Origin: an uncultured Candidatus Saccharibacteria bacterium
Lineage (GTDB): Bacteria > Patescibacteriota > Minisyncoccia > Phycocordibacterales > CAYRGE01
Assembly (NCBI GenBank): GCA_964612415.1
Contig: CAZTCT010000002.1
Location: 13,631-77,630 of the forward strand
Direction: 5' to 3'
Length of the DNA stretch: 64,000 bases
Shown here: piece after piece, positions 311 to 61,456 of the stretch
Layout of the letters: every line of letters begins with the position of its first letter
Numbering within the stretch: position 1 is the first letter of the stretch
Notes under the pieces: model-generated
Seen by the model: the letters and a program-made list of their open reading frames with translations, nothing else
What the model was told of the DNA's origin: nothing
Databases searched by the model: none
Translations under genes and position numbers: made by a program

Positions 311-397
311 TATGACCCCCTTGGATAAAGAGGGGGGGGTAGGGTGTTTTTCACCTAAAAATGGGGCTTTTTGGGGCAAAAATGCTAGAATAGCCGC

Positions 398-2713: not shown

Positions 2714-2767
2714 CGATATACCCAGGTTTAAAGGGGAGGCACAAATTTTCGGCTATAATAGACCACA

Positions 2768-4925: not shown

Positions 4926-4932
4926 TCTCAAT

Positions 4933-6060
4933 ATGCTACGCGTACTTTTTACAGGAAGTGGTGGAGGAGGGCACTTTTATCCCGTTATTGCGATCGTTCA
5001 ACAACTCAACGAACGTATTGATAAAGAAAAGCTCGTGAATGTTGAGCTTTATTATATGGCAGATTCTGTGCTAGACGAGCGGCTGCTTTTTGAGAACAAT
5101 GTGAAGTTCAAGAAAGTTCCAACGGGAAAACTGCGTGGCTATTTCTCTATTCAGAATTTTATTGATGTCTTTAAAACATTTGCTGCACTATTTAAAGCGG
5201 TCGGACAAATGTACTCTTTGTACCCTGACGTTGTTGTGGGGAAGGGGGGTTATGGGAGCTTACCAGCATTATTTGCGGCACGCTTTTTGCGCATACCAGT
5301 CATCATACACGAATCGGACACGGTCCCCGGGAAGGTGAATAAATGGGCGGGTAAGTTTGCGGAGCGAATCGCTGTGTCGTATCCGTCAGCTGCTGAATAT
5401 TTCCCAAAGGAAAAAGTTGCACTTACTGGACAGCCCATACGCCGTGAAATCCTTTATCCTCGTAAAGAAGGTGCAGGAGCTGCCTTTTTACTTGAACCGG
5501 GTACACCAACACTCCTTGTGCTTGGAGGATCTCAAGGTGCTCAGATGATCAACGAGGCCCTTATGCAGGTCATCCCAGGTCTCTTAGAGCGATTTCAGAT
5601 CATCCACCAGACGGGCTCTGAAAATTATGCAGCGGTGACGCAAATGGCAGGAGCGATGCTTGAGAATCATCAGTACAAAGCACGATATCATCCCATGCCA
5701 TTTCTTGATGATATGAAACTGCAACTTGCAGCTGGAGCAGCTACCCTTGTCTTGTCGCGCGCGGGCTCAACGATATTTGAGATTGCTGCGTGGGGACTTC
5801 CGTCTATTGTGGTTCCCATCACAAAATCAAATGGAGACCACCAGCGAAAGAATGCTTTTGCATATGCGCGCGCAGGAGCATGCGAGGTCATTGAGGAAGC
5901 CAATCTAAGTGCAAATATTCTTGCCTCCGAGATAACCCGACTCATGGATGATGGCGAAGAGCGTAAGCGCATGAGTGACGCTGCGAAGAATTTTGCGAAA
6001 TACGACGCAGCAGAGAAAATAGCTGACGCGGTTACCGAGATACTGGTTAAGCACCACTAA
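4933..6060 (+). CDS. murG: Undecaprenyl-PP-MurNAc-pentapeptide-UDPGlcNAc GlcNAc transferase MurG
   Basis: FTGSGGGGHFYP N-terminal G-loop, GT28 family; mraY-ftsW-murG order. Confidence 0.9.
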   Translation: MLRVLFTGSGGGGHFYPVIAIVQQLNERIDKEKLVNVELYYMADSVLDERLLFENNVKFKKVPTGKLRGYFSIQNFIDVFKTFAALFKAVGQMYSLYPDVVVGKGGYGSLPALFAARFLRIPVIIHESDTVPGKVNKWAGKFAERIAVSYPSAAEYFPKEKVALTGQPIRREILYPRKEGAGAAFLLEPGTPTLLVLGGSQGAQMINEALMQVIPGLLERFQIIHQTGSENYAAVTQMAGAMLENHQYKARYHPMPFLDDMKLQLAAGAATLVLSRAGSTIFEIAAWGLPSIVVPITKSNGDHQRKNAFAYARAGACEVIEEANLSANILASEITRLMDDGEERKRMSDAAKNFAKYDAAEKIADAVTEILVKHH

Positions 6061-6098
6061 TTACCAGCAAAAAACTATGGTAAAATGGGCCTATTCTT

Positions 6099-7421
6099 AT
6101 GAAAGATAAGCCTGTCATTACCCGATTTGCTCCGTCGCCAACTGGAGTCCTGCATGTAGGAAGCGCACGAACCGCTCTCTTTAATTATTTGTACGCAAAA
6201 AAGACCGGAGGGCGCTCAATCCTGCGCATTGAAGATACCGACAAAGAGCGTTCTAAGCCAGAGTTTGAAGAAGACATAAAGGAAGGACTTGCCTGGCTTG
6301 GTATTACATATGATGAGTTCTACCGGCAGAGTGAACGCGAGGCTGTGTACGCTAAGCATATTCAAAAATTGATTGATACCGGGCATGCCTACATCTCTCA
6401 AGAGGAGGTGAAGGAGGAGGGACAGCGAGCTGAGGTGATTAGATTTAAAAACCCCAACCAAAAGGTTTCTTTTGATGATATTGTGCGCGGAACGATAGAG
6501 TTTGATACGACTGACCTTGGAGATTTTGTCATCGCAAAATCACTTACAGAGCCACTGTATCACTTGGCAGTAGTGGTGGATGATTTTGTTATGGGAGTGA
6601 CGCACATCATTCGTGGAGAGGATGGGATTTCAAATACTCCTCGGCAGATTTTGATCCAAGAAGCGCTCGGGGCACCGCGCCCAGTATATGCGCACATACC
6701 ACTCATTCTTGCTCCAGACCGCTCCAAGCTCTCTAAGCGGCATGGCGCTCAGTCCATCCTTGAATATAGAAATGAAGGATATCTTCCGGAAGCAATCGTA
6801 AACTTCTTGGCGCTTATAGGCTGGAATCCAGGAGACGAGAGGGAAGTATTCACACTCGCAGAACTTGTAACAGAATTTTCACTTGAACGCATAAATAAAT
6901 CAGGAGCAATTTTTAATGCAGAAAAATTGCTCTGGATCAATAAAGAGCACTTGAAGCGTTTGCCCGAATCAGAAATTATTGAACGCATTCAAGGTGCTCT
7001 GGGTGTATCGCAAGACATGGCAACGAGACTCATGCCGATAGTTTTGGAGCGCATTTCCAGCTGGAAGGAGTTTGATCAACTTGTGAATGATGGAGACTTC
7101 TCATATGTGAATGCGCAGCCTGAATATGAGACGAACAAGCTCCTTTGGAAAGATGAGCCAGATACTCAAAAGACCGCCTTGCGGCTTAAGCATATAGTTG
7201 AAACTTTGACGGGTATTGATAGTGACAGCTTTCACGCAGACACAGTAAAGACAGCTATCTGGGATTATGCCACCACTGAAGGGCGTGGGACCGTGCTCTG
7301 GCCTATGCGATATGCATTGTCAGGCAAAGAAAAATCTCCAGACCCCTTTGTCCTCGCTGAATTATTGGGCAAAGACGAGTCTATCAATAGAATTAACGTA
7401 GCAATCAGTAAATTAAGTTAA
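6099..7421 (+). CDS. gltX: Glutamyl-tRNA synthetase
   Basis: HVGSARTALFNY (HIGH-like) and KLSKRHG (KMSKS) class I motifs of GluRS. Confidence 0.9.
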   Translation: MKDKPVITRFAPSPTGVLHVGSARTALFNYLYAKKTGGRSILRIEDTDKERSKPEFEEDIKEGLAWLGITYDEFYRQSEREAVYAKHIQKLIDTGHAYISQEEVKEEGQRAEVIRFKNPNQKVSFDDIVRGTIEFDTTDLGDFVIAKSLTEPLYHLAVVVDDFVMGVTHIIRGEDGISNTPRQILIQEALGAPRPVYAHIPLILAPDRSKLSKRHGAQSILEYRNEGYLPEAIVNFLALIGWNPGDEREVFTLAELVTEFSLERINKSGAIFNAEKLLWINKEHLKRLPESEIIERIQGALGVSQDMATRLMPIVLERISSWKEFDQLVNDGDFSYVNAQPEYETNKLLWKDEPDTQKTALRLKHIVETLTGIDSDSFHADTVKTAIWDYATTEGRGTVLWPMRYALSGKEKSPDPFVLAELLGKDESINRINVAISKLS

Positions 7422-11002: not shown

Positions 11003-11598
11003 ACGTTTGTAAAAATCTCTGGTATCGGGTATTTCGCATATTCGGGCAAAATATTCTTCCCATAAAGAATCCTTGAGAAACATTCTGCCTCTAGTTTGGC
11101 GTCAATGAGACCATGATGCGGCACTTCAATATCATGCATTCCTGTGTAGCGTAGAATCCCTTCTAAGTTTAAATCGGTTCTATCGTTGCGCAGAGGCACT
11201 GGAATTCCCCTTTTTACATGATCTGCGTAAGCAACTGAATGCAGGTCTACAACCCGATGTGGAAACTGGAAATCAATGCGTGCTTTTGCAAAAGAGAAAT
11301 TAAGATAGTCGCGATCTATGGCCACATTTTGCCCCGCGAGTGTTTTGTCGTTTGACTGCTCAACCCAATGAAAAAAAGATTGCATTATGTCCTCAAGACT
11401 TTGCTTATTTGGATCAGTCACTTCGGCTTCAGTGAAGCCAGACACCGCCAGTCCTTCTGGGTTGATCTCTGCCCCATCCCAAATGCGACACTCCTCGTAA
11501 AATTGCCGGTCTGGATTACTAAAATCGACACCGCCGATACTCACAATAGAATTGCGCTGGGGTAAGAGTCCTGTAGCTTCAATATCAACGACAAGCAT
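10999..11598 (-). CDS. DEDDh 3'-5' exonuclease (DnaQ/epsilon-like)
   Basis: Exo I DIEATG, Exo II NVAIDRDYL and Exo III HHGLIDA motifs. Confidence 0.8.
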   Translation of the reverse strand: MLVVDIEATGLLPQRNSIVSIGGVDFSNPDRQFYEECRIWDGAEINPEGLAVSGFTEAEVTDPNKQSLEDIMQSFFHWVEQSNDKTLAGQNVAIDRDYLNFSFAKARIDFQFPHRVVDLHSVAYADHVKRGIPVPLRNDRTDLNLEGILRYTGMHDIEVPHHGLIDAKLEAECFSRILYGKNILPEYAKYPIPEIFTNV

Positions 11599-11613
11599 GA
11601 TTTTAGTTTAGAA

Positions 11614-12855: not shown

Positions 12856-13305
12856 TTATTCTTCAACCACTTCAACTTCAAGTGTCACTTTGCCTCTATG
12901 TTCGCCTACGGTAATCCCAAGTGGGTGAATCCCAGCCTCTTTTATGGGCTTCTTAAGGGTAATATGCTCTGGTGACAGGTCGATGTCAGTCTGCTCCTTT
13001 ATTGCCTGCGCAATTTCTGCCTGATGAAGACCTGCAAAAAGATGCCCTTGATCATTCCCCTTGCCACTCATCTTGACCGTAATAGTTGCAAGGTCACCCA
13101 AGCTCTTAACCAAGAGCTCTTCTCGGACGGCAAGCTCCTGCTGATGGCGCAAGTTTAATGCCTCGTAGCGCTTCATCGCTGCCTTCGTGGCCACTTCAGC
13201 CTTTTTGGCTGGGAAAAGGAAGTTTCTAGCAAATCCTGGTGAAACTTCAGCAATTTGATACTTTTTGCCTACTTTGTGTACGTCTTGTAAAAGGATAACT
13301 TTCAT
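12856..13305 (-). CDS. rplI: Ribosomal protein L9
   Basis: MKVILLQDVHKVGKKYQIAEVSPGFARNFLFP typical L9 N-domain. Confidence 0.92.
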   Translation of the reverse strand: MKVILLQDVHKVGKKYQIAEVSPGFARNFLFPAKKAEVATKAAMKRYEALNLRHQQELAVREELLVKSLGDLATITVKMSGKGNDQGHLFAGLHQAEIAQAIKEQTDIDLSPEHITLKKPIKEAGIHPLGITVGEHRGKVTLEVEVVEE

Positions 13306-13366
13306 GGTGTTTTTGGTTAGTCCGCCGATTATAGCAAAGGGACGCGCTCCTTCGCAAGTAAGATTT

Positions 13367-14605
13367 TTACCTCAAAACCTCAAAAGCTTTTTGGAGCTGT
13401 GGGTCACGCCCAGCCTTAAGATCAGCTTCAGTAAGTGGTACTTTGTAGTCAGGTGTAATCCCTGTGCCATTAATGCCAGTGTCATCTGGCAAAAGCCAAC
13501 GAGCGACGGTAATCTTGAGGGAGGTATCATCAGTAACATCGATCAATTGCTGTACGGACCCCTTTCCAAAAGTCTGCTCTCCGACGATTTCCCCCACACC
13601 GTTCTTTGAAAGTGCCCCAGCAAGAATCTCCGACGCTGACGCAGAGCCTTCATTCACCAATATTACAAGATGAAGATTTTCATTGAAGATATCGTAGCCC
13701 TTGCTGCGGTAGATTTCTTCTTTCTGCTTCTCCCCAAAATCCTCCTTCACTACCACATCTCCTATCGGCAAAAACCAACTTGCTATATCAACCGCAGCGT
13801 CAAGATACCCGCCCGGGTTATTTCTGAGATCGAGAATAAGTTTTGTATACCCCTGATTGAAACTTAGTGTTGCAAATTCTCTTAATGCCTCTCTGAATTT
13901 GTCCGGCGAGGTGGCGCTGAAGCTCACAAGGCGGATCAGAAATGCCCGCTCTTCTGGATAATCCTCCGTTTCAACTACTGGAACATCAATAACATCTCGA
14001 GATACCTTGACCTCAAACGGTTCTGTGCGAGTGGTGCGATCAATAAGAAGCGTTACCTGAGTACCCTTCGGCCCTCTGATCAGGTCCACAGCCTCATTAA
14101 TGCTAAGGTCTGTGGTGTCGGTGTCGTCGATTTTTAGAATTCTATCTCCTGCGGCAAGTCCCGCTCTCTCAGCAGGAGTGCCCTTGAGCGGTGTAATGAT
14201 GGTAAGGACCCCGTCAACAATATCGATTTCCATTCCGACTCCCTCAAAATCCCCTCGTACTTCGCTTTCAAAATATTGCTTCGCTTTTGGCGGGAAGAAC
14301 ACTGAGTATGGATCTCCGAGCTTGGCAACAAGACCTTCGATTGCACCCCAGACCTTCTCTTGGTCACTCGGCATTTCTCCAACATAGAGTTCGTTGATGT
14401 CATTCCATGTTTTCCAGAATGGCGCAAAATCGACGGTCGTGCTTGCAAAAAGTCCTGCCGGGCCGGCATTCATTGGGTACGCACCCATCCCATTGATATC
14501 GTCTAGACGCAACGATGCAAAGAAATATCCCGCGCCAAAGGCGAGGGCTAATGCAATGATGCTCCCTGCTAGAAAAATACGCCGACGCGATGGTTCGGTG
14601 TTCAT
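13367..14605 (-). CDS. ctpA: Carboxyl-terminal processing protease (S41, PDZ-containing)
   Basis: PDZ segment and S41 catalytic region GSASASEILAGAL...TFGKGSVQ; likely start at MNTEPSRRRIFLAG (14605) rather than the GTG at 14674. Confidence 0.85.
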   Translation of the reverse strand: MNTEPSRRRIFLAGSIIALALAFGAGYFFASLRLDDINGMGAYPMNAGPAGLFASTTVDFAPFWKTWNDINELYVGEMPSDQEKVWGAIEGLVAKLGDPYSVFFPPKAKQYFESEVRGDFEGVGMEIDIVDGVLTIITPLKGTPAERAGLAAGDRILKIDDTDTTDLSINEAVDLIRGPKGTQVTLLIDRTTRTEPFEVKVSRDVIDVPVVETEDYPEERAFLIRLVSFSATSPDKFREALREFATLSFNQGYTKLILDLRNNPGGYLDAAVDIASWFLPIGDVVVKEDFGEKQKEEIYRSKGYDIFNENLHLVILVNEGSASASEILAGALSKNGVGEIVGEQTFGKGSVQQLIDVTDDTSLKITVARWLLPDDTGINGTGITPDYKVPLTEADLKAGRDPQLQKAFEVLR

Positions 14606-14685
14606 TGCAAAATTATCGCAAACTATCCACTTGTGGTCAAACGCACTCGCCGATATACTTACATCAATAAACACCAGTTCTCTGC

Positions 14686-15600: not shown

Positions 15601-15633
15601 ATCTCCCGTCGCTAGATATGATATAGTTTCCAA

Positions 15634-17043
15634 ATGGAAATCTTTCTGCAAAACACCGCTTCGCGAGAGAAAGAGGAGTTTACCCCCCAAGACCCAGGTC
15701 GTGTAAAAATTTATAGTTGTGGCCCGACCGTATACGAGAGAGCACATATTGGCAATCTGCGCGCATTTCTTCTCTCTGATGTACTACGCAGGGTTTTTGA
15801 ATATAACGACTATGAGGTCACACAGGTGATCAATATCACTGATGTTGGACACCTCACCAGTGACGCCGATGAGGGTGAAGACAAGCTCGAGGCAGCAGCA
15901 CGTTCAAAAAAGCAGAGTGCGCAGGAAATTGCAGTTTACTTCACGAATTTATTTTTCAATGATATTGGTGCGTTAAATATCAAGATGGATAGGACCATCT
16001 TCCCGCGTGCTACGGCGCACATCACGGAGCAAATTAATCTTATTGCGCGACTGGAGGAGAAAGGCTACACATATCAAACGTCCGACGGTGTGTACTTTGA
16101 TACCAGCAAGTTTCCGCCCTATGCCGATTTTGCGCATCTTGATGTTTCGGGACTCAAAGAAGGTGCGCGCGTTGATATTGGAGAAAAGCGAAATGCAACA
16201 GATTTTGCTCTTTGGAAATTCAGCCCAAAGGATGCTGGGCGCCAACAAGAGTGGGCTTCGCCGTGGGGGCAGGGATTCCCTGGTTGGCATATTGAATGCT
16301 CCGCGATGGCAATACGGTATCTTGGAGATGAATTTGATGTGCATACTGGCGGCATTGATCATATTTCCGTACACCACACAAACGAGATCGCCCAATCAGA
16401 GGCTGCTACCGGGCGAAAGTTCGTACATTATTGGCTGCATAGTGAATTTATGACGATTGAGGGCGAGAAGATGTCAAAGTCTATCGGCAACACATTTTCA
16501 CTTGATGATTTGTCTACAAAGAATATCCACCCCCTTGCCTACCGATATTGGCTTCTTACCGCACATTACCGCACCCCGCTAAATTTCACATGGGAGACGC
16601 TCACTGGCGCATCACAAGCGCTTTTGCGCCTTTATAAATACATCACCGACCTCCCCACTTCACAAGGAGGTATCCCCGCCCAATATGCCGAGCGGTTCCA
16701 GGAAGCAGTAAATGATGACCTTAACACACCAAAAGGTCTTGCGCTCGTCTGGGAGCTTATCCATGATGAGCAAATTGCTCCCGAAGACAAATACGCAGCG
16801 CTCATTAAGTTTGATGAGGTGCTGGGGCTGGATCTTAAAAATGCCCAGAATTACTTAACATCTTTTGAACAGCTTATCCCCATAAGCGAATTACCCCCAG
16901 AAATACGCGAGCTTGTCCGCGCTCGCGAAAATGCCCGTAAAACAAAGGCTTGGGAGGAAGCTGATGCTGCCCGTCTACAAATTGAAGAGGCCGGGTACCA
17001 CATAGAAGACGGAAAAGATGGGCCAAAAATCAGCAAAAAATAG
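15634..17043 (+). CDS. cysS: Cysteinyl-tRNA synthetase
   Basis: CGPTVYERAHIGNLR (HIGH), KMSKSIGN (KMSKS), Cys-binding region. Confidence 0.92.
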   Translation: MEIFLQNTASREKEEFTPQDPGRVKIYSCGPTVYERAHIGNLRAFLLSDVLRRVFEYNDYEVTQVINITDVGHLTSDADEGEDKLEAAARSKKQSAQEIAVYFTNLFFNDIGALNIKMDRTIFPRATAHITEQINLIARLEEKGYTYQTSDGVYFDTSKFPPYADFAHLDVSGLKEGARVDIGEKRNATDFALWKFSPKDAGRQQEWASPWGQGFPGWHIECSAMAIRYLGDEFDVHTGGIDHISVHHTNEIAQSEAATGRKFVHYWLHSEFMTIEGEKMSKSIGNTFSLDDLSTKNIHPLAYRYWLLTAHYRTPLNFTWETLTGASQALLRLYKYITDLPTSQGGIPAQYAERFQEAVNDDLNTPKGLALVWELIHDEQIAPEDKYAALIKFDEVLGLDLKNAQNYLTSFEQLIPISELPPEIRELVRARENARKTKAWEEADAARLQIEEAGYHIEDGKDGPKISKK

Positions 17044-17081
17044 CTGTCTGCCCGCTGACTTGTTGTGCTACAATAGCGTTC

Positions 17082-18461
17082 ATGGCCGACAAGAAAACAA
17101 GCTCTCCTTTGCGTGTTCCGCCTCAAAATCTTGAGACAGAAAAGGCGCTTCTCGGATCAATAATGCTGAAGCCAGCATCCCTCATTGAAGTCTCAGACCT
17201 TGTCACTCCCGAGTCTTTTTATGCTGAGAAGCACAAGATCATATTTCAGGCGATGCTCGATCTTTTTCATAAAAAGGAGCCAATTGACCTTCTCTCCCTC
17301 TCCTCTAAATTAAATGAGCAAAAGCTGCTGACTCAAATCGGTGGCCGAGCGTACCTGACCGAGCTTGTAAATATTGTTCCTTCTGCAGCAAACGTTGGAC
17401 ACTATGCAGATGTCGTTCACCGCAAACGAGTCCTGCGCGATCTCATTGAGATCGCAGAGCGAATAGCTCAAGCGGGATACGATGAGACCGAAGACTTGGA
17501 AGTTGTTTTAGATAATGCAGAAAAAAATATTCTCGGCGTCACTGCACTTGGCGTGAAGCGCTCATATGTAAACCTCCGCGACACTCTTGAGGAAGCATGG
17601 GAGAGATTGGACAAACTTCACAAATCAGACGGGGGACTTCGTGGTGTGCCGACCGGCTTTCAGTCATTGGATGACAAACTCTCCGGTCTTCAGAAGTCAG
17701 ACCTCATTATTCTGGCAGCCCGCCCTTCCGTCGGTAAAACATCTCTTGCGCTTGATATCGCGCGAAATGCTGCCCTTCAGCATAAGGTGCCCACATGTAT
17801 ATTCTCGCTTGAAATGAGCTCTCAGCAACTTGTTGATAGGATGCTTTCAGCTGAGTCAAAAGTGGATTCCTGGAAAATTCGCACTGGTAAAATTTCAAAT
17901 GAGGGTGAATTTGAGCAGATCCAGCATGCAATGTCTCGTCTTGCCGAGGCCCCCATCTTTATTGACGACCAGGCTGGCAATACAATCATGAAGATGCGCT
18001 CTGTTGCACGTCGTGTGAAGAGTCAGCACGGACTTGGTCTTATTGTTGTAGACTACCTACAGCTCATGATGACCTCAAAGCAGTATGATTCATTGGTCAC
18101 CCAGGTCACTGAGATATCTCGCTCCCTTAAGGCACTCGCACGCGAGCTTGATGTGCCAGTACTTGCCCTCTCGCAGCTCTCTCGCGCCGTAGAACACCGT
18201 CGAGACCGCCCTCGCCTCTCTGATCTTCGTGACTCAGGTTCTATTGAACAAGATGCTGACTTGGTAATGTTCATCCACCGCCCAGACCGCTATGTTGAGA
18301 ACTCAGATCGTCCGAACATTGCAGAAATCTTGATCGAGAAGCATCGTAATGGTCCAACTGGAAAAGTGGAGCTCTACTTTGACGACAAGAAAACATCATT
18401 TGTTAACTTGGATAATAGCGAGTGGAGCGAGAGCGCAATGGCAGCTACAGACGACTTTTAA
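17082..18461 (+). CDS. dnaB: Replicative DNA helicase DnaB
   Basis: N-terminal DnaB domain (PPQNLETEKALLGSIML), Walker A ARPSVGKTS, H4 and RecA-like motifs. Confidence 0.93.
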   Translation: MADKKTSSPLRVPPQNLETEKALLGSIMLKPASLIEVSDLVTPESFYAEKHKIIFQAMLDLFHKKEPIDLLSLSSKLNEQKLLTQIGGRAYLTELVNIVPSAANVGHYADVVHRKRVLRDLIEIAERIAQAGYDETEDLEVVLDNAEKNILGVTALGVKRSYVNLRDTLEEAWERLDKLHKSDGGLRGVPTGFQSLDDKLSGLQKSDLIILAARPSVGKTSLALDIARNAALQHKVPTCIFSLEMSSQQLVDRMLSAESKVDSWKIRTGKISNEGEFEQIQHAMSRLAEAPIFIDDQAGNTIMKMRSVARRVKSQHGLGLIVVDYLQLMMTSKQYDSLVTQVTEISRSLKALARELDVPVLALSQLSRAVEHRRDRPRLSDLRDSGSIEQDADLVMFIHRPDRYVENSDRPNIAEILIEKHRNGPTGKVELYFDDKKTSFVNLDNSEWSESAMAATDDF

Positions 18462-18466
18462 TTTCT

Positions 18467-19090
18467 ATGAATGAGCTTGAGAAACTGGTCACTCTTTTTG
18501 CGAAGCTCCCAGGTGTTGGCAAACGGCAAGCGCGCCGTTTTGTGTACCACCTTTTGACCAGGGACAAGTCCGTAACCAAAGCGCTCATACAGGAGCTTGG
18601 ACGGCTCCATGAGCATATCTCTCAATGCGACCATTGTATGCGCTTCTTTGAAAAGAAAGGCGGCCCTGGCACACTCTGTCGCACGTGCGCAGACCCCCAC
18701 ACAGACAGAGCATCCATGCTTGTCGTTGAGAAGGATGTTGACCTTGAAAGTGTTGAGCGAAGCGGTGCATACTCCGGCAGATATTTTGTTATTGGCGGGA
18801 CACTCCCAATTCTTGAGAAGGAGCCAGAAAAGATGATACGCCTCAAAGCATTTATCTCCGAGCTAAAACGGGCCGCAAAGGAAGACAATCTCAGTGAAAT
18901 AATCTTCGCTCTCTCGGCGACTCCTGAAGGAGAGTACACAGCAGAGTACCTAAAGACTGCCACAAAAGAGGCAGGGTTTGGAGAAATTAGTACCAGTATC
19001 CTTGGACGCGGGCTCTCCACTGGAAGCGAGCTTGAATACTCCGATGAGGAGACGCTAAAAAGCGCCCTCAAGAATCGGGGCGCTTTTTAA
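18467..19090 (+). CDS. recR: Recombination protein RecR
   Basis: HhH (LPGVGKRQARRFVYHLL), C4 zinc finger CDHC...CRTC, Toprim. Start taken at MNELEKL (18467) just after the dnaB stop. Confidence 0.88.
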   Translation: MNELEKLVTLFAKLPGVGKRQARRFVYHLLTRDKSVTKALIQELGRLHEHISQCDHCMRFFEKKGGPGTLCRTCADPHTDRASMLVVEKDVDLESVERSGAYSGRYFVIGGTLPILEKEPEKMIRLKAFISELKRAAKEDNLSEIIFALSATPEGEYTAEYLKTATKEAGFGEISTSILGRGLSTGSELEYSDEETLKSALKNRGAF

Positions 19091-19109: not shown

Positions 19110-19424
19110 TTACTTAACTGAGGAGATTTTCACCTTAAGGTATTGCTGTCGGTGCCCGTTTTTCTTGAAGTAGCGACTCTTTGCTTTGTAGTGAATAACA
19201 GTGATCTTCTTCCCCCTTCCTACCTTTTCAACTACGCCGTTCACCTTAGCCCCTTTGATGTATGGGGTTCCGATGGTGGTCTGCTTTCCGTCTGAAAGGA
19301 AAAGGACCTTATCAAAGGCAACTTTATCGCCCTCCTTGAGGTCGCCCATGATCTCAATATTTACGAGAGAATCTGGAGACACCTTGTATTGCTTTCCTCC
19401 TGTTTCGATAACTGCGATTTCCAT
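19110..19424 (-). CDS. rplU: Ribosomal protein L21
   Basis: MEIAVIETGGKQYKV canonical L21. Confidence 0.92.
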   Translation of the reverse strand: MEIAVIETGGKQYKVSPDSLVNIEIMGDLKEGDKVAFDKVLFLSDGKQTTIGTPYIKGAKVNGVVEKVGRGKKITVIHYKAKSRYFKKNGHRQQYLKVKISSVK

Positions 19425-19489
19425 AGATTTCGGGATTATACCAAAGACATTAAATTCCGCAAGAGAGCGGAGATTGACCTTATTTTTTA

Positions 19490-19520: not shown

Positions 19521-20603
19521 CTAATCCTCTTCAGATTCAGGCTTCTCTAGTAAATCCACTTCCACTTCGTTAGATGTACCGGTAACTCTCAAAATATCCT
19601 TATCAATCTTTCCAAACTCCTTCTGTGCGGAATTGTAGTGACTCACTGTCGTCCCAAGCGATGTCCCAAGCTTTGTAAAAAATTGTTGATATGCCCCTAG
19701 ATGCCGCCCTAGCTCCCCTACCCGCTTTTGAATATCCTTTGCCTGCTCTTCAATCTGCAACGCCTTAAGCCCCTGTAGCACCGTCTGCAGATATGCCAAA
19801 AATGATGTCGGTGAGGCAATGATGACTTTCTTCGCAAATGCATACTCTATCAAGTCACGCGTTTGTGTCTTCATTGCCCCCACCTGGTTTATCAAAAGGT
19901 CATAGTAAACTCCTTCAGAAGGAATGAACATGAACGCGAATTCCATCGTGTTCTCTTCTGGGCGAACATATTTTGATGTTTCGTCAATGCGAAGTTTGAG
20001 GTCTTGTTTGAAGGCTTTCTCATATTTTTCCCGCTCTGCCTTATCGCGTGATTCAATAGCACGATTATAATTTTCCAACGAGAACTTTGAATCCACAGGG
20101 ATGATGCGATCTTTCACTTTCACGATTGCATCCACGATCTCACCGTTTTTGAACATGTATTGCATCTCATACGAGCCGGGAGGCAATACATTTTTAAGCA
20201 CAGTCTCAAGATAGTATTCACCTAGTACTCCGCGTTGCTTCGGGTTCTGTAGAACATCCTGAAGATTCTGGAGCTGGTCAGCAAAATCGACAACCTGTCG
20301 GTTCACTTCCTTTACACTCGTCAGCTCACGGGTAATCTCTTGGATAAGCTTCTGCGACTGATCAAACTGTGCGCGCATCGTGGTGTTAAGCTCACGTTGT
20401 GAATCTCCGAGCTTCGCCTCAAGCGCACGAGTGAGATTGTCTATCTGATTTTGCAGGAGAACGAGCCCTTGATCATCCCCGCGAGACTCCCCTCGCGATC
20501 GTCGTGCAACAATCCAGGCGAACACGCCGCCAATAGCTGCTCCGACAAGAATCCAGATGATAAGTTCAGGGCTCATATTGAGTCGATGGTACCATACCCA
20601 CAA
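19521..20603 (-). CDS. rmuC: DNA recombination protein RmuC
   Basis: N-terminal TM, coiled coil, GEYYLETVL... RmuC core. Confidence 0.85.
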   Translation of the reverse strand: MWVWYHRLNMSPELIIWILVGAAIGGVFAWIVARRSRGESRGDDQGLVLLQNQIDNLTRALEAKLGDSQRELNTTMRAQFDQSQKLIQEITRELTSVKEVNRQVVDFADQLQNLQDVLQNPKQRGVLGEYYLETVLKNVLPPGSYEMQYMFKNGEIVDAIVKVKDRIIPVDSKFSLENYNRAIESRDKAEREKYEKAFKQDLKLRIDETSKYVRPEENTMEFAFMFIPSEGVYYDLLINQVGAMKTQTRDLIEYAFAKKVIIASPTSFLAYLQTVLQGLKALQIEEQAKDIQKRVGELGRHLGAYQQFFTKLGTSLGTTVSHYNSAQKEFGKIDKDILRVTGTSNEVEVDLLEKPESEED

Positions 20604-20619: not shown

Positions 20620-23328
20620 CTACCCTGCCCGTTTCTGTGGCATACGAAACACGATATATTTTGATATCTCCACTACAGTAAGGTTGATTGTTCCAAAAAG
20701 CAGGACCGCAAGCACTGTGATGTATGTCGGAGCGGCCAAGGTGAGGAGGTGCTGGAGTGCGGGTGTAACCAGTGCCAAAAGAAGAGCCAGAAGGCTAAAT
20801 GAAAGCGCACCAAGTAAATAGCGGTTTGAGGAGAGTTTGATCTTCCATAAAGGTTGATGGAGGTTCTTCATTGCAAATGCAAAGAAGATAGAATCTATTG
20901 AAACAGCAATAAACATCAGGGTTCGGAGTTCATCAATCGGCGTACCTAGATGATCTAACGTGAGATAGAGTATTCCCAGGAAAATCCCTGTCATCCCCGC
21001 TACAAGAAAGATGAGTTTCTTAAGCTTTTGGGTCACGATCTCTTTCATTGAGTGCTCACGAGGGTCTTTTTTCATAGACTCTGGCTCAAGCGGTTCAAAT
21101 GCAAACGCAAAGTTCATAAATCCTTCTTCGACGATCTTTGTCCAGAGGATCTGTGACGGCAACAACGGCAATGGCTTTCCCAAGAAAAGCGCTACTGTCA
21201 CCACCACAATCTCACTGAAACTCGTTGAAAGAAGGTATGTGATGATCTTTTTTAGATTATCCCTGATGCGTCTTCCCTCCTCTATTGCACTTGTGATAAC
21301 GCTGAAGCTGTCATCAAGCAAGATGATATCTGATGCGTCTTTTGCGACTTCAGTACCACTACCGAGTGCGAGACCAATATCAGCATTGCGTAGTGCTGGG
21401 GCATCATTTACCCCGTCTCCTGTCATTGCAACAACCTCTCCATTGCCGCGCAAAAGACGTGCAAGGCGCAGTTTATGCTCAGGAAGTACTCGTGCAAAGA
21501 CAGAGTGCTTTTTGATCGTAGCGAGCAGATCTTCGTCGTTGAGCCCCTCAAGGTCTTTCCCAAGAATCGCCTTCTCCTCTCCATGCGCAATGCCTGCCTC
21601 GCGCGCAATGGCAAGCGCAGTCTCTGGATTATCCCCTGTCGCCATGACTACACGCGTCCCCACATTCTGCACGATCTTGATAGCTGCAGGCACATCCGCT
21701 CGCAGAGGGTCATGCATCGCGATAAAGCCCCCAAAAACAAACCCCTCAAGGTCAGCAGCCGTTTTCTCATCTATCTTCTCATCCGAAATGTCTTTGTATC
21801 CAACACCGATGAGTCGCATACCTTTCTTGCTATAAGAATGATGCGCCCGTGCAAGAAGTGCATGCTTTTCTTTTGTAAGCCGCTCAGACTTACCATTTCG
21901 ATAAGCAGACTTCGCGTGTTCAAGTATAAATTCTGGAGCACCGGTTATATAAAAGCGTTTCATTTTCTTTCTTGGCAAAGAGTGCAGAGATCCGGCAAAA
22001 CGCCGCTCTGGATTGAATGGGAGGTAATCAACGCGCGCATATTCGCGCAAAAGGTCTTTCTGTGAAAGTCCGAGTTCAATGCCTGCAGTCATGATTGCCT
22101 TCTCCACCGGACGCCCGCGCACCACCCAGCCAGCAAGCGCTTCGCCTTCATTTTCAACAAACGCATCTGAGGTTAGTATCGCCATTTTGAGCGCATCAAG
22201 TCCATCCGCATGTACTTTAAGCTGTTTTGCAGTTGGCGCATCTCCAGGCGGTTGCTCTGTCGGCTCTTCAAGCAATGTCGCAAGTGTGATGATCTCGGCA
22301 ACTTGCATCTGCGCTTTTGTGAGCGTGCCCGTTTTGTCGGTGAGAATGATCGTCGTCCCTCCAAGCGTCTCAGCCGCAAGCAGATTTCGCACAAGACCGC
22401 CTTTTTTAAGAATTGATTCCATCCCAATCGCAAGTACCACGGTCACGGCAACAGGAAGCCCTTCTGGCATGGCGGCAACGGCAATAGCAATAGAAATGAA
22501 TATAAGATCAAAGAGCTCGTATCCGCGCGCAAGCCCGACGATGAGAATGAGTGCCAAGACACCCAAAATGACGTACATGAGAAAAGTAGCGAGACGGTGA
22601 ATACTCTTCTGAAGTGGCGTACTCTCGTCTATTTTCTCGCCGAGAGATTGCGCAATAACTCCAATCTGTGTCTTGTTTCCCGTGGCAATAACAATACCTT
22701 GCCCAGTCCCTGTGGCGACAAGTGTACCCATCCACGCCATATTGCCCTGCTCGCTCAATGGCGCTTCGCCAGCGATCACCTGACTGTCTTTACTTACTGG
22801 AACCCACTCGCCAGTAAGCGTTGCTTCATTTGTTGAAAGATCTTGTGCGATCAAAATTCTCACATCTGCGGGGACATACATTCCGGCAGATAATTCAATG
22901 ATATCCCCGGGGACGAGCTCCTCTGTCTGCACGATAGACTTTCTGCCTTCGCGAATAACTACAGCAGTCCGCTCTTGAGACTTAGCGAGCCGATCAAAAG
23001 CAGTGAAAGCTCTTTCTTCTTGGAAAACGCCAATGATGACATTGATAGCGAGTGCGATACCAATGACGATTGCATTCGTGTACTCTCCAAGGAGAATCGT
23101 TGCTACGCCCGCACCAAGAAGCACAAGCACAAGCGGATTCTTTAGTTGAGTGAGGATTCGCTGTAAAACGGTAACCTTTTTGTGCCGTTCAAAAACATTT
23201 TTCCCGTAATTCTTTTGCCGTTTGGCGACTTCGCCTCCCGCAAGCCCGCTTTTAAGGTCCGAGACGAACTCTGTCAGTAAATCTTCTTGAGTTTTTTGAT
23301 ACCATAGCGCCGATTTTTCTGGCGACAT
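20620..23328 (-). CDS. P-type cation-transporting ATPase (PIIA, Ca2+/SERCA-like)
   Basis: DKTGTLT phosphorylation motif, PEGLP, TGDGVNDAPAL, 10 TM. Confidence 0.9.
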   Translation of the reverse strand: MSPEKSALWYQKTQEDLLTEFVSDLKSGLAGGEVAKRQKNYGKNVFERHKKVTVLQRILTQLKNPLVLVLLGAGVATILLGEYTNAIVIGIALAINVIIGVFQEERAFTAFDRLAKSQERTAVVIREGRKSIVQTEELVPGDIIELSAGMYVPADVRILIAQDLSTNEATLTGEWVPVSKDSQVIAGEAPLSEQGNMAWMGTLVATGTGQGIVIATGNKTQIGVIAQSLGEKIDESTPLQKSIHRLATFLMYVILGVLALILIVGLARGYELFDLIFISIAIAVAAMPEGLPVAVTVVLAIGMESILKKGGLVRNLLAAETLGGTTIILTDKTGTLTKAQMQVAEIITLATLLEEPTEQPPGDAPTAKQLKVHADGLDALKMAILTSDAFVENEGEALAGWVVRGRPVEKAIMTAGIELGLSQKDLLREYARVDYLPFNPERRFAGSLHSLPRKKMKRFYITGAPEFILEHAKSAYRNGKSERLTKEKHALLARAHHSYSKKGMRLIGVGYKDISDEKIDEKTAADLEGFVFGGFIAMHDPLRADVPAAIKIVQNVGTRVVMATGDNPETALAIAREAGIAHGEEKAILGKDLEGLNDEDLLATIKKHSVFARVLPEHKLRLARLLRGNGEVVAMTGDGVNDAPALRNADIGLALGSGTEVAKDASDIILLDDSFSVITSAIEEGRRIRDNLKKIITYLLSTSFSEIVVVTVALFLGKPLPLLPSQILWTKIVEEGFMNFAFAFEPLEPESMKKDPREHSMKEIVTQKLKKLIFLVAGMTGIFLGILYLTLDHLGTPIDELRTLMFIAVSIDSIFFAFAMKNLHQPLWKIKLSSNRYLLGALSFSLLALLLALVTPALQHLLTLAAPTYITVLAVLLFGTINLTVVEISKYIVFRMPQKRAG

Positions 23329-23368
23329 ATGGAAATCATTATATCACAGCCCCATTTTGCACCGGGCG

Positions 23369-23390
23369 CCCTATTTGAGCTAAAATAGGG
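23369..23390. promoter_or_regulatory. Perfect 8-bp-arm palindrome CCCTATTT-gagcta-AAATAGGG, 5 nt upstream of the yqeY ATG and overlapping a TAAAAT -10-like box
   Basis: Read directly; candidate operator or 5' hairpin. Confidence 0.4.
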
Positions 23391-23395
23391 CTACT

Positions 23396-23848
23396 ATGCT
23401 ACAACAAAAAATTAAGTCTGAGTTACCCGCAGCCATGAAAGCAAAGGATGCTTTGCGAGTGAATGTACTGAAAGGAATGATGTCAGGGTTTACCAACGAG
23501 CTTGTTGCTCGCGGCGTTCCTCCACAGGGTGAGCTTGATGACGACGGCGTACTTACTGTAATCCGACGTCTTGCCAAGCAGCGCAAAGACTCAATTGAAC
23601 AATTCACAAAAGGTGGCCGACAAGAACTCGCGGACAAAGAAGCAGCAGAGCTTGCTATCCTTGAGAGCTACCTCCCACAAATGATGCCGATAGATGAGAT
23701 CCGCAAACTCGCACAAGCAAAGCAAAGCGAGCTTGGTATCACTGACAAAGCAAAAGCAGGAATGCTTATGGGCGCACTTATGAAAGACCTCAAGGGTAAA
23801 GCCGATGGTGCAGATGTTAAAACTGCGGTAGACGAATTATTTGCTTAG
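23396..23848 (+). CDS. yqeY: GatB/YqeY-domain protein
   Basis: ALRVNVLKGMMSGF...ILESYLPQMM typical YqeY. Confidence 0.85.
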   Translation: MLQQKIKSELPAAMKAKDALRVNVLKGMMSGFTNELVARGVPPQGELDDDGVLTVIRRLAKQRKDSIEQFTKGGRQELADKEAAELAILESYLPQMMPIDEIRKLAQAKQSELGITDKAKAGMLMGALMKDLKGKADGADVKTAVDELFA

Positions 23849-31281: not shown

Positions 31282-31311
31282 GTAGCATCACGATAGCGCG
31301 GGAATGTATTT

Positions 31312-41824: not shown

Positions 41825-42163
41825 TGGCGTTATATGAACTTCTGTGCGGGATAAAACAACGGGCAACAACTCTATGCGGCGCTAAGACTGAAAAAGAAAG
41901 TGGCGGGTACACATTGCCCCATCACATATAGCGCGTGTGGGAATGAGCCCGCCTTGCATAAAGTCATTACTTTTTATTTTCATGGTTGTACAGTGACGCT
42001 CGTTTGCTCGTGAGCGGTGCTATACGCAAATGACGGCAACCCGACTTTTGCCGAACTTTGCGCGCACACTTCATTTTAGCACGCAACTTCTCTCTTCTGC
42101 CATAAAAAATCTGTTAATAATGCGCTCCTGGCGCGAAATTGGGTATGGTATAGTTGTTCCTGT

Positions 42164-46614: not shown

Positions 46615-46651
46615 GCGTATTTCCCTCCTTCAGTCTTGTGGATTTAAGGTA

Positions 46652-47786: not shown

Positions 47787-47956
47787 GCGATTCCCTGTGC
47801 GTGTGATGTTCTGAACCACACTTCCAAGAAACCCTTTGATGCTTGGTTGTGCGTAAGATGCAGGCATTGTTGCTTATATTATCTGCCATCAGCACCTCGC
47901 CTGCAATGCAAACTGTGGAAAGCACGATCCTTCGCGCCTTGCTATAATGCATCCAT

Positions 47957-52196: not shown

Positions 52197-52287
52197 GCAT
52201 AAATATTGTACCAAAACAGAGGCACTGCGCGATAGAAAGTGGGGATTTATATATAACAAAAGGCCAGCATATGCTGGCCTTGGTGTA

Positions 52288-61375: not shown

Positions 61376-61456
61376 AATCTTATATTTTATTTCTCATAAG
61401 GGAGCAGGAGCCGCTCCATTTCATATGACACACGAATAGTAACTACCGTTTCCCCC

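What the first reader, a model, noticed from the sequence alone, without database searches (positions are those of the whole stretch)
17044..17084. Systematic pattern of extended -10 boxes 6-10 nt upstream of start codons with no Shine-Dalgarno (probable leaderless mRNAs)
Seven genes show the same arrangement:
- dnaB: TGcTACAAT + 7 nt + ATG
- mraY: gcTATAATagaccacaATG
- murG: TAAAATaatctcaatATG
- gltX: TGgTAAAAT, with a leader of only a few nt
- scpA: aTGcTAGAATagccgcATG
- the 47957 methyltransferase: TATAATgcatccatATG
- cysS: TATAGTttccaaATG

None of these has a GGAGG-like element, whereas a few other genes do (cytochrome c, folA, the 29860 small ORF).

This implies frequent leaderless initiation, which matters for gene-start calling in this genome. 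Several ORF-track starts look too long.
Basis: seen in the sequence. Interest (0 to 1): 0.5.

Follow-up and report, generated by a model that had tools for sequence, protein, structure and literature searches.

The report
Leaderless gene starts in Parcubacteria
In this candidate-phyla-radiation (Parcubacteria) genome about half of the independently transcribed genes have a promoter -10 box 6-10 bases before the ATG and no ribosome-binding site, so their mRNAs probably start at or next to the start codon; the mechanism is known from other bacteria, but I found no description of it for this group, and it shifts where genes should be annotated to begin.

Summary
All seven quoted strings are in the sequence. 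After start refinement, 27 of 65 genes have a -10-like hexamer 5-10 nt before the ATG: 20 of the 39 genes that are not tightly coupled to an upstream gene, 12 of them with a TGn extension. With unrefined starts the count is 21 of 62, against 7.7±2.5 in local shuffles. An E. coli control run through the same pipeline shows Shine-Dalgarno (SD) enrichment instead.

The window is a Parcubacteria/Paceibacteria (CPR) genome. In 80 related loci (1.3 Mb):
- The same peak appears, with spacer mode 6-7 nt.
- The logo is TnTGnTAwAAT, with a weak -35 TTG at 17-nt spacing.
- ATG is almost the only start codon after the box.
- The box is near background before stop-start coupled genes.
- It is conserved before dnaB, rplU and rmuC despite changed neighbours.

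SD is barely above background.

Best reading: extended -10 promoters make leaderless or ≤5-nt-leader mRNAs, downstream genes reinitiate by stop-start coupling, and a few genes keep SD. At least twelve longest-ORF starts are too long.

This is the known "group C" architecture in a lineage for which I found no published description. No transcription-start data exist, so the transcript 5' ends remain inferred.

The parts
17066..17084 (+). dnaB: extended -10 TGcTACAAT + 7 nt + ATG (the flagged site)
   Evidence: Sequence. The ATG is the first start codon of the ORF, and the DnaB N-terminal domain starts at residue 13. 64 of 79 orthologues have TANNNT 4-12 nt before the ATG, 54 of them with TG.
383..400 (+). 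scpA: TGcTAGAAT + 6 nt + ATG
2754..2770 (+). mraY: TATAAT + 8 nt + ATG, in a 54-nt gap
4918..4935 (+). murG: TAAAAT + 9 nt + ATG. Ambiguous: 7 nt after the ftsW stop, and the hexamer overlaps that stop codon.
   Evidence: In relatives, genes with gaps of 10 nt or less show near-background motif frequency.
6078..6101 (+). gltX: TGgTAAAAT + 12 nt + ATG (predicted leader of about 5 nt, no SD)
15619..15636 (+). cysS: TGaTATAGT + 6 nt + ATG, inside a 33-nt gap after corA
47940..47959 (+). methyltransferase: TGcTATAAT + 8 nt + ATG. Divergent from 47454-47867.
47865..47881 (-). LMWPc-like gene: TAATAT + 8 nt + ATG. This is the other half of the 89-bp divergent spacer.
19422..19443 (-). rplU (bL21): TGgTATAAT + 10 nt + ATG
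   Evidence: 57 of 59 orthologues have TANNNT 5-10 nt before the ATG.
20574..20594 (-). rmuC: TGgTACCAT + 9 nt + ATG at 20576. The longest-ORF TTG start at 20603 is too long.
   Evidence: 15 of 21 orthologues carry the box at 5-10 nt.
23326..23346 (-). P-type ATPase: TGaTATAAT + 9 nt + ATG
   Evidence: It lies in a 67-bp divergent spacer shared with yqeY.
23381..23398 (+). yqeY: TAAAAT + 9 nt + ATG
14603..14620 (-). S41 peptidase: TGcGATAAT + 6 nt + ATG at 14605. The GTG start at 14674 is too long.
31279..31295 (-). tgt: TATCGT + 8 nt + ATG
56854..56868 (+). second methyltransferase: TATCGT + 6 nt + ATG at 56866. The first ATG at 56851 is probably not used. Same 13-mer as at tgt.
42146..42166 (+). 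LOG-family gene: TGgTATAGT + 9 nt + ATG
46141..46155 (-). UvrD/PD-(D/E)XK helicase: TATAAT + 6 nt + third ATG (46143). The ORF start at 46182 is too long.
   Evidence: The UvrD domain starts at residue 26 of the long form.
47412..47429 (-). HAD hydrolase: TGgTACTAT + 6 nt + ATG at 47414. The TTG start at 47432 is too long.
52194..52213 (-). AhpC/peroxiredoxin: TGgTACAAT + 8 nt + ATG at 52196. The TTG start at 52259 is too long.
   Evidence: The AhpC-TSA domain starts at residue 26 of the long form.
53745..53759 (-). hypothetical 189-aa gene: TATAAT + 6 nt + ATG
61373..61389 (-). hypothetical 310-aa gene: TAAAAT + 8 nt + ATG
11596..11610 (-). exonuclease gene: TAAACT + 6 nt + ATG (weak box, 15-nt gap)
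13303..13336 (-). rplI (bL9): TGcTATAAT + 22 nt + ATG. Example of a short (about 15 nt) SD-less leader.
18459..18469 (+). dnaB stop TAA + 5 nt + recR ATG (18467). Example of a stop-start coupled gene with no -10 box and no SD. The GTG start at 18422 is too long.
   Evidence: In 57 of 76 orthologues the aligned ATG is the first possible start, and recR follows the dnaB stop by a few nt.
46615..46636 (-). cytochrome c upstream region: AAGGAGGG 8-9 nt before the ATG. One of the few SD-led genes.

Best explanation
The window comes from a Parcubacteria/Paceibacteria (CPR) genome whose housekeeping sigma-70 type RNA polymerase uses promoters dominated by an extended -10 element (consensus TnTGnTAwAAT) with only a weak -35 TTG.

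In about half of the transcription units this element sits 6-10 nt before the ATG, most often 6-7 nt. Transcription is therefore predicted to begin at the A of the ATG or 1-4 nt upstream of it. That gives mRNAs with no room for a Shine-Dalgarno (SD) sequence.

Such 5'-AUG mRNAs are translated by the leaderless route: the ribosome and fMet-tRNA bind the 5'-terminal AUG directly.

Genes further down an operon carry neither the box nor SD. They start -16 to +10 nt from the preceding stop codon, so they are most likely translated by termination-reinitiation. A small minority of genes (for example cytochrome c and hyp194) keep a positioned SD.

Shown here: the motif, its identity as a promoter-type element, its spacing, its enrichment, its dependence on operon position, its conservation across the clade, and the near absence of SD.

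Inferred, not shown: the actual transcript 5' ends and the translation route.
For: 1. Enrichment in the window.
- TANNNT at spacer 5-10 occurs in 21 of 62 unrefined starts, against 7% at random positions and 7.7±2.5 in local shuffles. TGNTANNNT occurs 6 times against 0.41 expected.
- With refined starts, 27 of 65 genes qualify. That includes 20 of the 39 genes that are not stop-start coupled.

2. Gene-call-free reverse test. TGNTANNNT followed by ATG plus an ORF of at least 80 codons peaks at spacers 6-10 in relatives (105, 81, 51, 54, 47, against about 5-15 elsewhere). It yields 12 sites in the window.

3. Unbiased k-mer ranking. TATAAT is the most enriched 6-mer at -22..-1 of starts in relatives (132 observed, 12.4 expected). 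The E. coli control returns AAGGA, TAAGG and AGGAG.

4. Promoter signature from 596 sites. G is 44% at -14, T is 53% at -15 and 58% at -17. TTG peaks at 17-nt spacing (64 against about 12).

5. Start codon. The codon 6-8 nt after the box is ATG in 165 cases. GTG and TTG are not among the 12 commonest codons there, the 12th of which has 7 counts. All 27 window cases use ATG.

6. Operon position in relatives. TANNNT at spacer 5-10 occurs in 18% of genes (extended form 4%) when the same-strand gap is 10 nt or less. The figures are 63%/18% for gaps of 11-30 nt, 59%/28% for gaps of 31-60 nt, and 47%/20% for divergent genes.

7. Conservation before orthologous genes.
- dnaB: 64 of 79 orthologues, 54 with TG, whether the neighbour is cysS (30) or a divergent gene (32).
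- rplU: 57 of 59. rmuC: 15 of 21.
- In 60 of 67 related loci the frequency is more than twice the random expectation, over a GC range of 30-51%.

8. SD usage. SD-like 4-mers occur in 13% of window starts against 8% at random, and in 8% against 6% in relatives. The E. coli control gives 33% against 4%.

9. Base before the ATG. T at -1 is enriched in box-bearing genes (60% against 43-46%). This fits the pyrimidine(-1)/purine(+1) preference at transcription starts, but it is weak support.

10. Literature.
- The architecture matches GeneMarkS-2 group C, which has a Pribnow box about 6-10 nt before the start of leaderless first genes (PMC6028130).
- The anti-SD motif was not detected in about half of Parcubacteria 16S genes (PMC9297842).
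Against: - There are no transcription-start data for this organism or any close relative, so the 5' ends are predictions.
- About a quarter of the sites have spacers of 9-10 nt, and some have 12 nt (gltX, DUF5752). These imply a 2-5-nt leader or an unusually long discriminator.
- rplU also has a stronger full-consensus promoter 65 nt upstream (TTGACG-17-TGcTATAAT), so at least some genes may also be made as leadered transcripts.
- Seven window cases lie within 10 nt of an upstream stop codon and may be chance matches that involve TAA or TAG.
- A generic -35/-10 scan finds no excess of promoters (10 found, 12.4 expected), although this is expected when -35 elements are weak.
- A small positional SD peak in relatives (GGAG at 6 nt: 22 against about 3) shows that SD pairing is not abolished.
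- The 16S 3' end of this genome could not be examined.
Confidence: 0.8

Rival explanations
1. The boxes are real promoters but secondary ones. Most protein is made from longer polycistronic or leadered transcripts, with SD-independent internal initiation at unstructured, A/U-rich start regions. Leaderless transcripts would then be a minor fraction.
For: - rplU has a strong upstream promoter plus a hairpin in addition to the proximal box.
- Many boxes sit in 30-40-nt gaps behind same-strand genes with no evident terminator.
- Several genes clearly have SD-less leaders: bL9 22 nt, corA 26 nt, and bipA with no box.
Against: - Divergent gene pairs with 67-89-bp spacers leave no room for other promoters (ATPase/yqeY and LMWPc/methyltransferase).
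- The sharp 6-7-nt spacing and the near-exclusive use of ATG are not required if these promoters were incidental.
- The exact arrangement is conserved at dnaB, rplU and rmuC.
Confidence: 0.12
2. The TA-rich hexamer is a non-SD ribosome-binding or translation-enhancer element on leadered mRNAs, as in the AT-rich motif of Bacteroidetes (GeneMarkS-2 group B). It would not be a promoter.
For: - The motif lies at a distance from the ATG (5-10 nt) that also suits a ribosome-binding site.
- Some same-strand genes with small gaps carry it.
- bS21 is often absent and bS1 is short in CPR (PMC9297842), so unusual 30S-mRNA contacts are conceivable.
Against: - The defining group B property is that the same motif precedes operon-internal genes. 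That is not met: 4% extended and 18% simple boxes at gaps of 10 nt or less, against 47-63% elsewhere.
- The motif carries the TG / TRTG extension and a -35 TTG at 17-nt spacing, which are RNA polymerase contacts.
Confidence: 0.05
3. The pattern is an artefact of AT-rich intergenic composition, stop codons (TAA/TAG) near starts, or wrongly called start codons.
For: - The 3-nt periodicity (spacers 6, 9, 12) in the longest-ORF analysis is a start-calling artefact, because in-frame TAA/TAG boxes fix the call.
- Stop codons can seed TANNNT in gaps of 11-16 nt.
Against: - Local shuffles, random-position controls, control spacer windows and an E. coli control all reject it.
- The periodicity disappears in the gene-call-free test.
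- The ATGs of dnaB, murG, gltX, cysS and bipA are fixed to within a few residues by Pfam domain boundaries.
Confidence: 0.03

Closest known systems
GeneMarkS-2 'group C' bacterial genomes (Mycobacterium tuberculosis, Streptomyces, Deinococcus deserti): frequent leaderless transcription (PMC6028130)
   Same: - A Pribnow-type TANNNT box lies 6-10 nt before the start codon of first genes in operons.
- Those genes have no SD.
- The fraction of transcription units affected is similar or higher: about 50% here, against 25-50% reported.
   Different: - Group C genomes with genetic code 11 are almost all high-GC (bioRxiv 10.1101/2022.07.25.500264). This clade is 30-51% GC.
- In group C the remaining genes mostly carry SD. 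Here SD is near background, and the remaining genes are stop-start coupled or have SD-less short leaders.
- There is no transcription-start validation here.
Low-GC, code-4 Mollicutes classified as group C (bioRxiv 10.1101/2022.07.25.500264)
   Same: Reduced genomes with low or medium GC. 30-60% of transcripts are predicted to be leaderless, from -10 boxes next to the start codon.
   Different: A different phylum and a different genetic code: TGA is a stop codon here, and ORFs are intact under table 11. RBS models with SD consensus are still derived for those Mycoplasma genomes.
Extended -10 / '-16 region' (TRTGnTATAAT) promoters of Firmicutes and E. coli
   Same: T at -17 and -15, G at -14, a TAwAAT hexamer and a weak or dispensable -35 element.
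   Different: In those organisms the promoters normally precede 20-200-nt leaders that carry SD. Here the promoter is placed so that the +1 position coincides with the start codon.
GeneMarkS-2 'group B' (Bacteroidetes/FCB): non-SD AT-rich RBS
   Same: SD is hardly used, and an A/T-rich motif lies a few nt before the start.
   Different: The group B motif precedes internal operon genes as well. Here it does not, and it has RNA polymerase-type extensions.
Archaeal leaderless genes (group D: Haloferax, Sulfolobus)
   Same: A high proportion of transcription units are leaderless, with a promoter at a fixed distance from the ATG.
   Different: The archaeal TATA box lies about 22-26 nt upstream. Here a bacterial -10 box lies 6-10 nt upstream.

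Membership tests
Leaderless-rich bacterial genome (GeneMarkS-2 group C type) | -10 (TANNNT) box localized about 6-10 nt upstream of the start codon of first genes in operons | tested here: met
   Window: 21 of 62 unrefined starts and 27 of 65 refined starts. Relatives: peak at spacer 6-7.
Leaderless-rich bacterial genome (GeneMarkS-2 group C type) | No SD upstream of those genes | tested here: met
A spacer of 10 nt or less leaves no room for one.
Leaderless-rich bacterial genome (GeneMarkS-2 group C type) | AUG (rarely GUG) as the 5'-terminal start codon | tested here: met
   ATG occurs 165 times, and GTG and TTG fewer than 7 times each, at 6-8 nt after the extended -10 box in relatives. All 27 window cases use ATG.
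Leaderless-rich bacterial genome (GeneMarkS-2 group C type) | Remaining (internal or leadered) genes use SD-type RBS | tested here: not met
   SD 4-mers occur in 13% of window starts against 8% at random, and in 8% against 6% in relatives. Only a small positional peak is seen. Remaining genes are mostly stop-start coupled (19 of 65).
Leaderless-rich bacterial genome (GeneMarkS-2 group C type) | Transcription start mapped at, or within a few nt of, the start codon | not testable with these tools
   No transcriptome or 5'-end data are available. The TM7x transcription-start paper (PMID 35975994) is not held.
Sigma-70 extended -10 promoter | TG one base upstream of the -10 hexamer; conserved A at -11 and T at -7 | tested here: met
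   G is 44% and T is 53% at the two positions, against backgrounds of 20% and 30%. 12 of the 20 free-standing window boxes have TGn.
Sigma-70 extended -10 promoter | -35 element about 17 nt upstream (may be weak) | tested here: met
   TTG peaks at 16-17-nt spacing (52 and 64, against about 12). The element is weak: a generic two-hexamer scan is not enriched.
Non-SD RBS genome (GeneMarkS-2 group B, Bacteroidetes type) | Same upstream motif before first and internal genes of operons | tested here: not met
   The motif occurs in 18% of genes (extended form 4%) at gaps of 10 nt or less, against 47-63% (18-28%) for genes with their own upstream space.
Canonical SD-led genome (group A) | SD consensus enriched 5-10 nt upstream of most starts | tested here: not met
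   The E. coli control through the same pipeline gives 33% against 4%, and SD k-mers rank top there.
Parcubacteria lacking the anti-SD (PMC9297842) | 16S rRNA 3' end without CCUCC | not testable with these tools
   No 16S gene is present in the window or in the 80 loci. A few well-placed SD motifs suggest that the anti-SD is retained here.

The most novel reading that the evidence does not exclude
Paceibacteria (Parcubacteria, CPR) as a class may run a translation-initiation regime with three parts:
- About half of all transcription units are leaderless 5'-AUG mRNAs made from extended -10 promoters.
- Most other genes are reinitiated by stop-start coupling.
- SD pairing is nearly vestigial.

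This would be the functional counterpart of the reported loss of the anti-SD motif, the frequent absence of bS21 and the shortened bS1 in this group. It would be a mid- or low-GC, code-11 bacterial clade with near-archaeal levels of leaderless usage. It would also mean that gene starts in thousands of CPR MAGs are systematically called too far upstream.
Probability: 0.6. Interest if true: 0.55.

Novelty: new member of a known kind. Interest (0 to 1): 0.42.

Why it matters
1. Annotation. At least 12 of about 65 longest-ORF starts in this window are too long. Public gene calls for the same DNA use the long forms of recR and rmuC. Gene finders tuned to SD, or to high-GC leaderless genomes, will misplace starts in CPR MAGs. 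That affects N-terminal signal peptides, domain boundaries and protein clustering.

2. Biology. The result gives a concrete expression model for an uncultivated, genome-reduced lineage. A single short element serves as promoter and fixes the translation start, intergenic spacers shrink to 30-90 bp, and operon-internal genes rely on reinitiation.

3. Link to ribosome changes. It connects independently reported ribosome peculiarities of Parcubacteria (anti-SD loss, frequent absence of bS21, short bS1) to a testable mRNA architecture.

4. Engineering. It supplies a promoter consensus (TnTGnTAwAAT + 6-7 nt + ATG) usable for expression design or heterologous testing.

Tried and rejected
- Rfam (gathering scan of the whole window; E-value scan around rplU) and tRNA scans found nothing, so no structured leaders or RNA genes explain the spacers.
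- A search for a 16S 3' end in the window and the 80 loci found none, so the anti-SD could not be read.
- The generic TTGACA-N16-18-TATAAT scan showed no enrichment (10 found, 12.4 expected). It is uninformative because -35 elements are weak here.
- The longest-ORF histogram showed a 3-nt periodicity (spacers 6, 9, 12). I traced it to start-calling bias from in-frame TAA/TAG boxes, and it vanishes in the gene-call-free test. I therefore do not read it as biology.
- I considered a non-SD RBS, a compositional artefact and mis-called starts as explanations. They were rejected as described under the rival explanations.
- Literature. No paper in the held library combines 'leaderless' with Patescibacteria, CPR, Parcubacteria or Saccharibacteria in the sense of mRNA. 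The hits were references to the GeneMarkS-2 title, to leaderless secretion or to YchF.
- The GeneMarkS-2 supplementary tables and the TM7x transcription-start paper are not held. I therefore cannot exclude that CPR genomes were already listed as group C there.
Other CPR classes were not sampled, so how far the pattern extends across the phylum is unknown.
Full report
**What is at the coordinates.** Positions 17044-17084 are the 38-nt spacer between cysS (15634-17043) and dnaB (17082-18461), plus the dnaB ATG. They read ...ctgacttgttgTGcTACAATagcgttcATG. All seven quoted strings are present with the stated spacings. None of the seven has an SD-like 4-mer 4-13 nt before the ATG.

**Where the window comes from.** The closest DnaB relatives (60-74% identity) are all MAGs labelled Parcubacteria, Paceibacterota, Ca. 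Yonathbacteria, Taylorbacteria or Nomurabacteria, or generic Patescibacteria. The window is therefore a CPR genome of the class Paceibacteria. It has about 47% GC, uses code 11, and has no tRNA or Rfam hit. The 80 fetched loci (1.3 Mb, 30-51% GC) served as an independent comparison set. A 50-kb E. coli K-12 stretch served as a pipeline control.

**Is it more than chance?**
- With purely mechanical gene calls (greedy longest ORFs, first ATG/GTG/TTG), TANNNT at spacer 6-12 occurs 30 times before 63 starts. The expectation is 5.5.
- At spacer 5-10 it precedes 21 of 62 starts. Random positions give 7% (binomial p = 6e-10). Shuffling each gene's own 40-nt upstream region gives 7.7±2.5, with a maximum of 18 in 2000 shuffles.
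- TGNTANNNT occurs 6 times against 0.41 expected.
- In the relatives the figures are 501 of 1329 against 292±15 (z = 13.6). The extended box occurs 183 times against 16 expected.
- The E. coli control shows no enrichment (3 of 42 against 4.7). It shows the expected SD signal instead (33% against 4%).
- A ranking of all 6-mers at -22..-1 puts TATAAT first in the relatives (132 against 12.4). SD-type words rank first in E. coli.
- A test that needs no gene calls gives the same answer. I took every TGNTANNNT and asked what follows it. ATG plus an open frame of at least 80 codons peaks at spacers 6-10 (105, 81, 51, 54, 47, against about 5-15 elsewhere). The window has 12 such sites.
- The 6/9/12 periodicity in the longest-ORF histogram is a calling artefact. 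In-frame TAA/TAG boxes pin the call. The periodicity is absent from this test.

**Is the motif a promoter?** I aligned 596 sites from the relatives on the hexamer.
- The logo is T(-17) n T(-15) G(-14) n TAwAAT. This is the extended -10 / '-16 region' signature.
- TTG peaks 16-17 nt upstream (52 and 64, against about 12). This is a weak -35 element.
- The spacer to the ATG is distributed as follows: 5 nt, 37 sites; 6 nt, 192; 7 nt, 117; 8 nt, 89; 9 nt, 110; 10 nt, 51. The mode equals the canonical distance from the -10 box to the transcription start.
- The codon at that position is ATG 165 times. GTG and TTG do not reach the 12 commonest codons. This matches the known strong preference of leaderless translation for a 5'-terminal AUG (my own knowledge of the field).
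- The base before the ATG is T in 60% of box-bearing genes, against 43-46% in others. This is weak support for a pyrimidine(-1)/A(+1) start site.

**Dependence on operon position.** In the relatives, using a first-ATG rule:

| Upstream context | TANNNT at spacer 5-10 | Extended form |
|---|---|---|
| Same strand, gap 10 nt or less | 18% | 4% |
| Same strand, gap 11-30 nt | 63% | 18% |
| Same strand, gap 31-60 nt | 59% | 28% |
| Divergent neighbour | 47% | 20% |

A ribosome-binding motif of the Bacteroidetes type should also precede tightly packed internal genes (the criterion in PMC6028130). This motif does not.

**Conservation.**
- Before dnaB, 64 of 79 orthologues have TANNNT 4-12 nt from the ATG. 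54 of them carry TG, and the commonest spacers are 6 and 7 nt.
- This holds whether the upstream gene is cysS (30 loci), another same-strand gene (10) or a divergent gene (32).
- Before rplU the figure is 57 of 59. Before rmuC it is 15 of 21. Before cysS it is only 17 of 55, so the arrangement is gene-specific rather than universal.
- In 60 of 67 loci with at least 10 genes, the box frequency is more than twice the local random expectation (median 0.39 against 0.11).

**The window gene by gene.** I refined the starts using the first ATG, Pfam domain boundaries and orthologue alignment. The 65 genes then fall into five classes:

| Class | Genes |
|---|---|
| Box 5-10 nt before the ATG | 27 |
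| Only stop-start coupled (-85 to +9 nt; all but one within -16 to +9) | 19 |
| Box 11-30 nt upstream (short SD-less leader: gltX 12, DUF5752 12, bL9 22, corA 26) | 8 |
| Only an SD-like element (cytochrome c AAGGAGGG, hyp194 GGGAGG, DHFR and others) | 6 |
| None of these (bipA, class II aaRS, cupin, glycogen synthase, one gene at the window edge) | 5 |

- Of the 39 genes that are divergent or more than 10 nt from the preceding gene, 20 (51%) carry the box at 5-10 nt. 12 of those 20 have TGn.
- The seven box-bearing genes within 10 nt of an upstream stop codon, murG among them, are ambiguous.
- Divergent pairs share 67-89-bp spacers that hold two back-to-back boxes and nothing else: ATPase/yqeY at 23329-23395, and LMWPc-like/methyltransferase at 47868-47956.

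**Starts that are too long.** The longest-ORF starts overshoot for these genes:
- ftsW: 3798 → 3825
- the small ORF at 8636: → 8726
- S41 peptidase: 14674 → 14605
- recR: 18422 → 18467
- rmuC: 20603 → 20576
- 6PGL: 34712 → 34682
- glycogen synthase: 41869 → 41824
- the UvrD-like helicase: 46182 → 46143
- HAD: 47432 → 47414
- ahpC: 52259 → 52196
- bipA: 55990 → 55951
- the TrmH-like gene: 56812 → 56782
- probably methyltransferase 2: 56851 → 56866

For recR, 57 of 76 orthologues have the aligned ATG as the first possible start, and 64 have an in-frame stop within the 15-codon 'extension'. Public gene calls on an identical contig use the long recR (222 aa) and rmuC (360 aa) forms.

**SD usage.** SD-like 4-mers at 4-12 nt occur in 13% of window starts (8% at random positions) and in 8% of relatives' starts (6% at random). 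A small positional peak (GGAG at 6 nt and AGGA at 7 nt, 22 each against about 3) shows that a few percent of genes do use SD. The anti-SD is therefore probably present in at least part of the clade. The 16S gene could not be examined.

**Mechanism proposed.**
- The housekeeping RNA polymerase holoenzyme recognises the extended -10 element.
- The transcript starts at the A of the ATG for spacers of 6-8 nt, or a few nt upstream for spacers of 9-12 nt.
- The 5'-terminal AUG is decoded by the leaderless route.
- Downstream cistrons are translated by termination-reinitiation across gaps of -16 to +10 nt.
- A few genes retain SD.
- Steps shown: motif identity, spacing, enrichment, operon-position dependence, conservation, ATG exclusivity and SD scarcity.
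- Steps inferred: the transcript 5' ends and the ribosomal route.

**Comparison with what is known.** The arrangement is the one GeneMarkS-2 models as 'group C', with a Pribnow box about 6-10 nt from the start of leaderless first genes. Group C is typical of Actinobacteria and Deinococcus-Thermus (PMC6028130) and of some code-4 Mollicutes (bioRxiv 10.1101/2022.07.25.500264). It differs here in three ways:
- The GC content is mid to low with code 11. That preprint states that code-11 group C genomes are almost all high-GC.
- SD is very rare among the remaining genes.
- The lineage is different.

For Parcubacteria, the literature I could search reports that the anti-SD motif is undetected in about half of 16S genes, that bS21 is frequently absent, and that bS1 is short (PMC9297842). 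It does not mention leaderless mRNAs. No held paper combines 'leaderless' with Parcubacteria (0 hits). None combines it, in the mRNA sense, with Patescibacteria, CPR or Saccharibacteria. I could not read the GeneMarkS-2 supplementary genome lists, so prior implicit classification cannot be excluded.

**Verdict.** It is a known kind of gene-start architecture in a lineage for which I found no description: a new member of a known kind. Its practical consequences for CPR genome annotation are real, and its conceptual interest is moderate.

Noticed in passing
window 30037-30070: A 14-base homopolymer (C14 on the + strand, G14 on the - strand) sits directly beside a GC hairpin (ccccgcc-ggtga-gggcgggg). 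It lies between tgt and a 68-aa ORF. On the + strand the hairpin is followed by TTTTCATTTT, like an intrinsic terminator, although both flanking genes are on the - strand.
   Followed up: partly
window 31283-31295 (-) and 56854-56866 (+): The exact 13-mer TATCGTGATGCTA occurs at the promoter/start of tgt and at the start of a methyltransferase gene (0.08 matches expected by chance, none of 100 shuffles reaching 2 matches). It could be a shared regulatory site or a duplicated promoter.
   Followed up: partly
window 19435-19518 (-): rplU has two tandem extended -10 promoters. The first is a near-consensus TTGACG-17-TGcTATAAT directly after the rmuC stop. It is followed by a hairpin (19456-19471) with a U-rich tail, and then by the proximal TGgTATAAT 10 nt before the ATG. 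No Rfam leader matches. It may be an attenuator or autoregulatory leader.
   Followed up: partly
window 46243-46636 (-): A cytochrome c gene (PF00034), unusual for a fermentative CPR lineage, carries the strongest SD in the window (AAGGAGGG). It could have been acquired horizontally together with its ribosome-binding site.
   Followed up: no
L082 (Logan contig SRR15237813_332975) vs window 18422-20603: Public gene calls on a contig that encodes the identical DnaB use the over-long starts for recR (222 aa) and rmuC (360 aa). Orthologue comparison does not support those starts.
   Followed up: yes
L001-L080, dnaB/recR junction: recR follows the dnaB stop by 0-6 nt in nearly all relatives (...gatgatttttaaNNNNATG). 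This is a conserved stop-start coupled pair with no SD and no promoter box.
   Followed up: yes
window 50835-50850 (-): Before the cupin gene, the box TGcTACAAT overlaps the first ATG (tgctacaATG). If the box is used, that ATG cannot be in the mRNA, and the next in-frame ATG is 36 nt downstream. The true start is unresolved.
   Followed up: no
window 32078-41869 (-): A long same-strand cluster holds oxidative pentose-phosphate genes (G6PD, 6PGD, 6PGL) and glycogen/starch genes (GH15, DUF5752, GH57, GT4 synthase), plus ROK and CAP genes. The cistrons are mostly separated by 1-15 nt, which makes it a good test case for reinitiation-based expression.
   Followed up: no
L013 (Ca. Yonathbacteria RIFOXYC2_FULL_47_9): This related locus shows the opposite pattern in a small sample of 14 genes: SD-like motifs in 36% and no proximal -10 boxes by the crude calls, although its dnaB still has TGcTACAAT + 7 nt. 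Usage within the clade may be heterogeneous.
   Followed up: no
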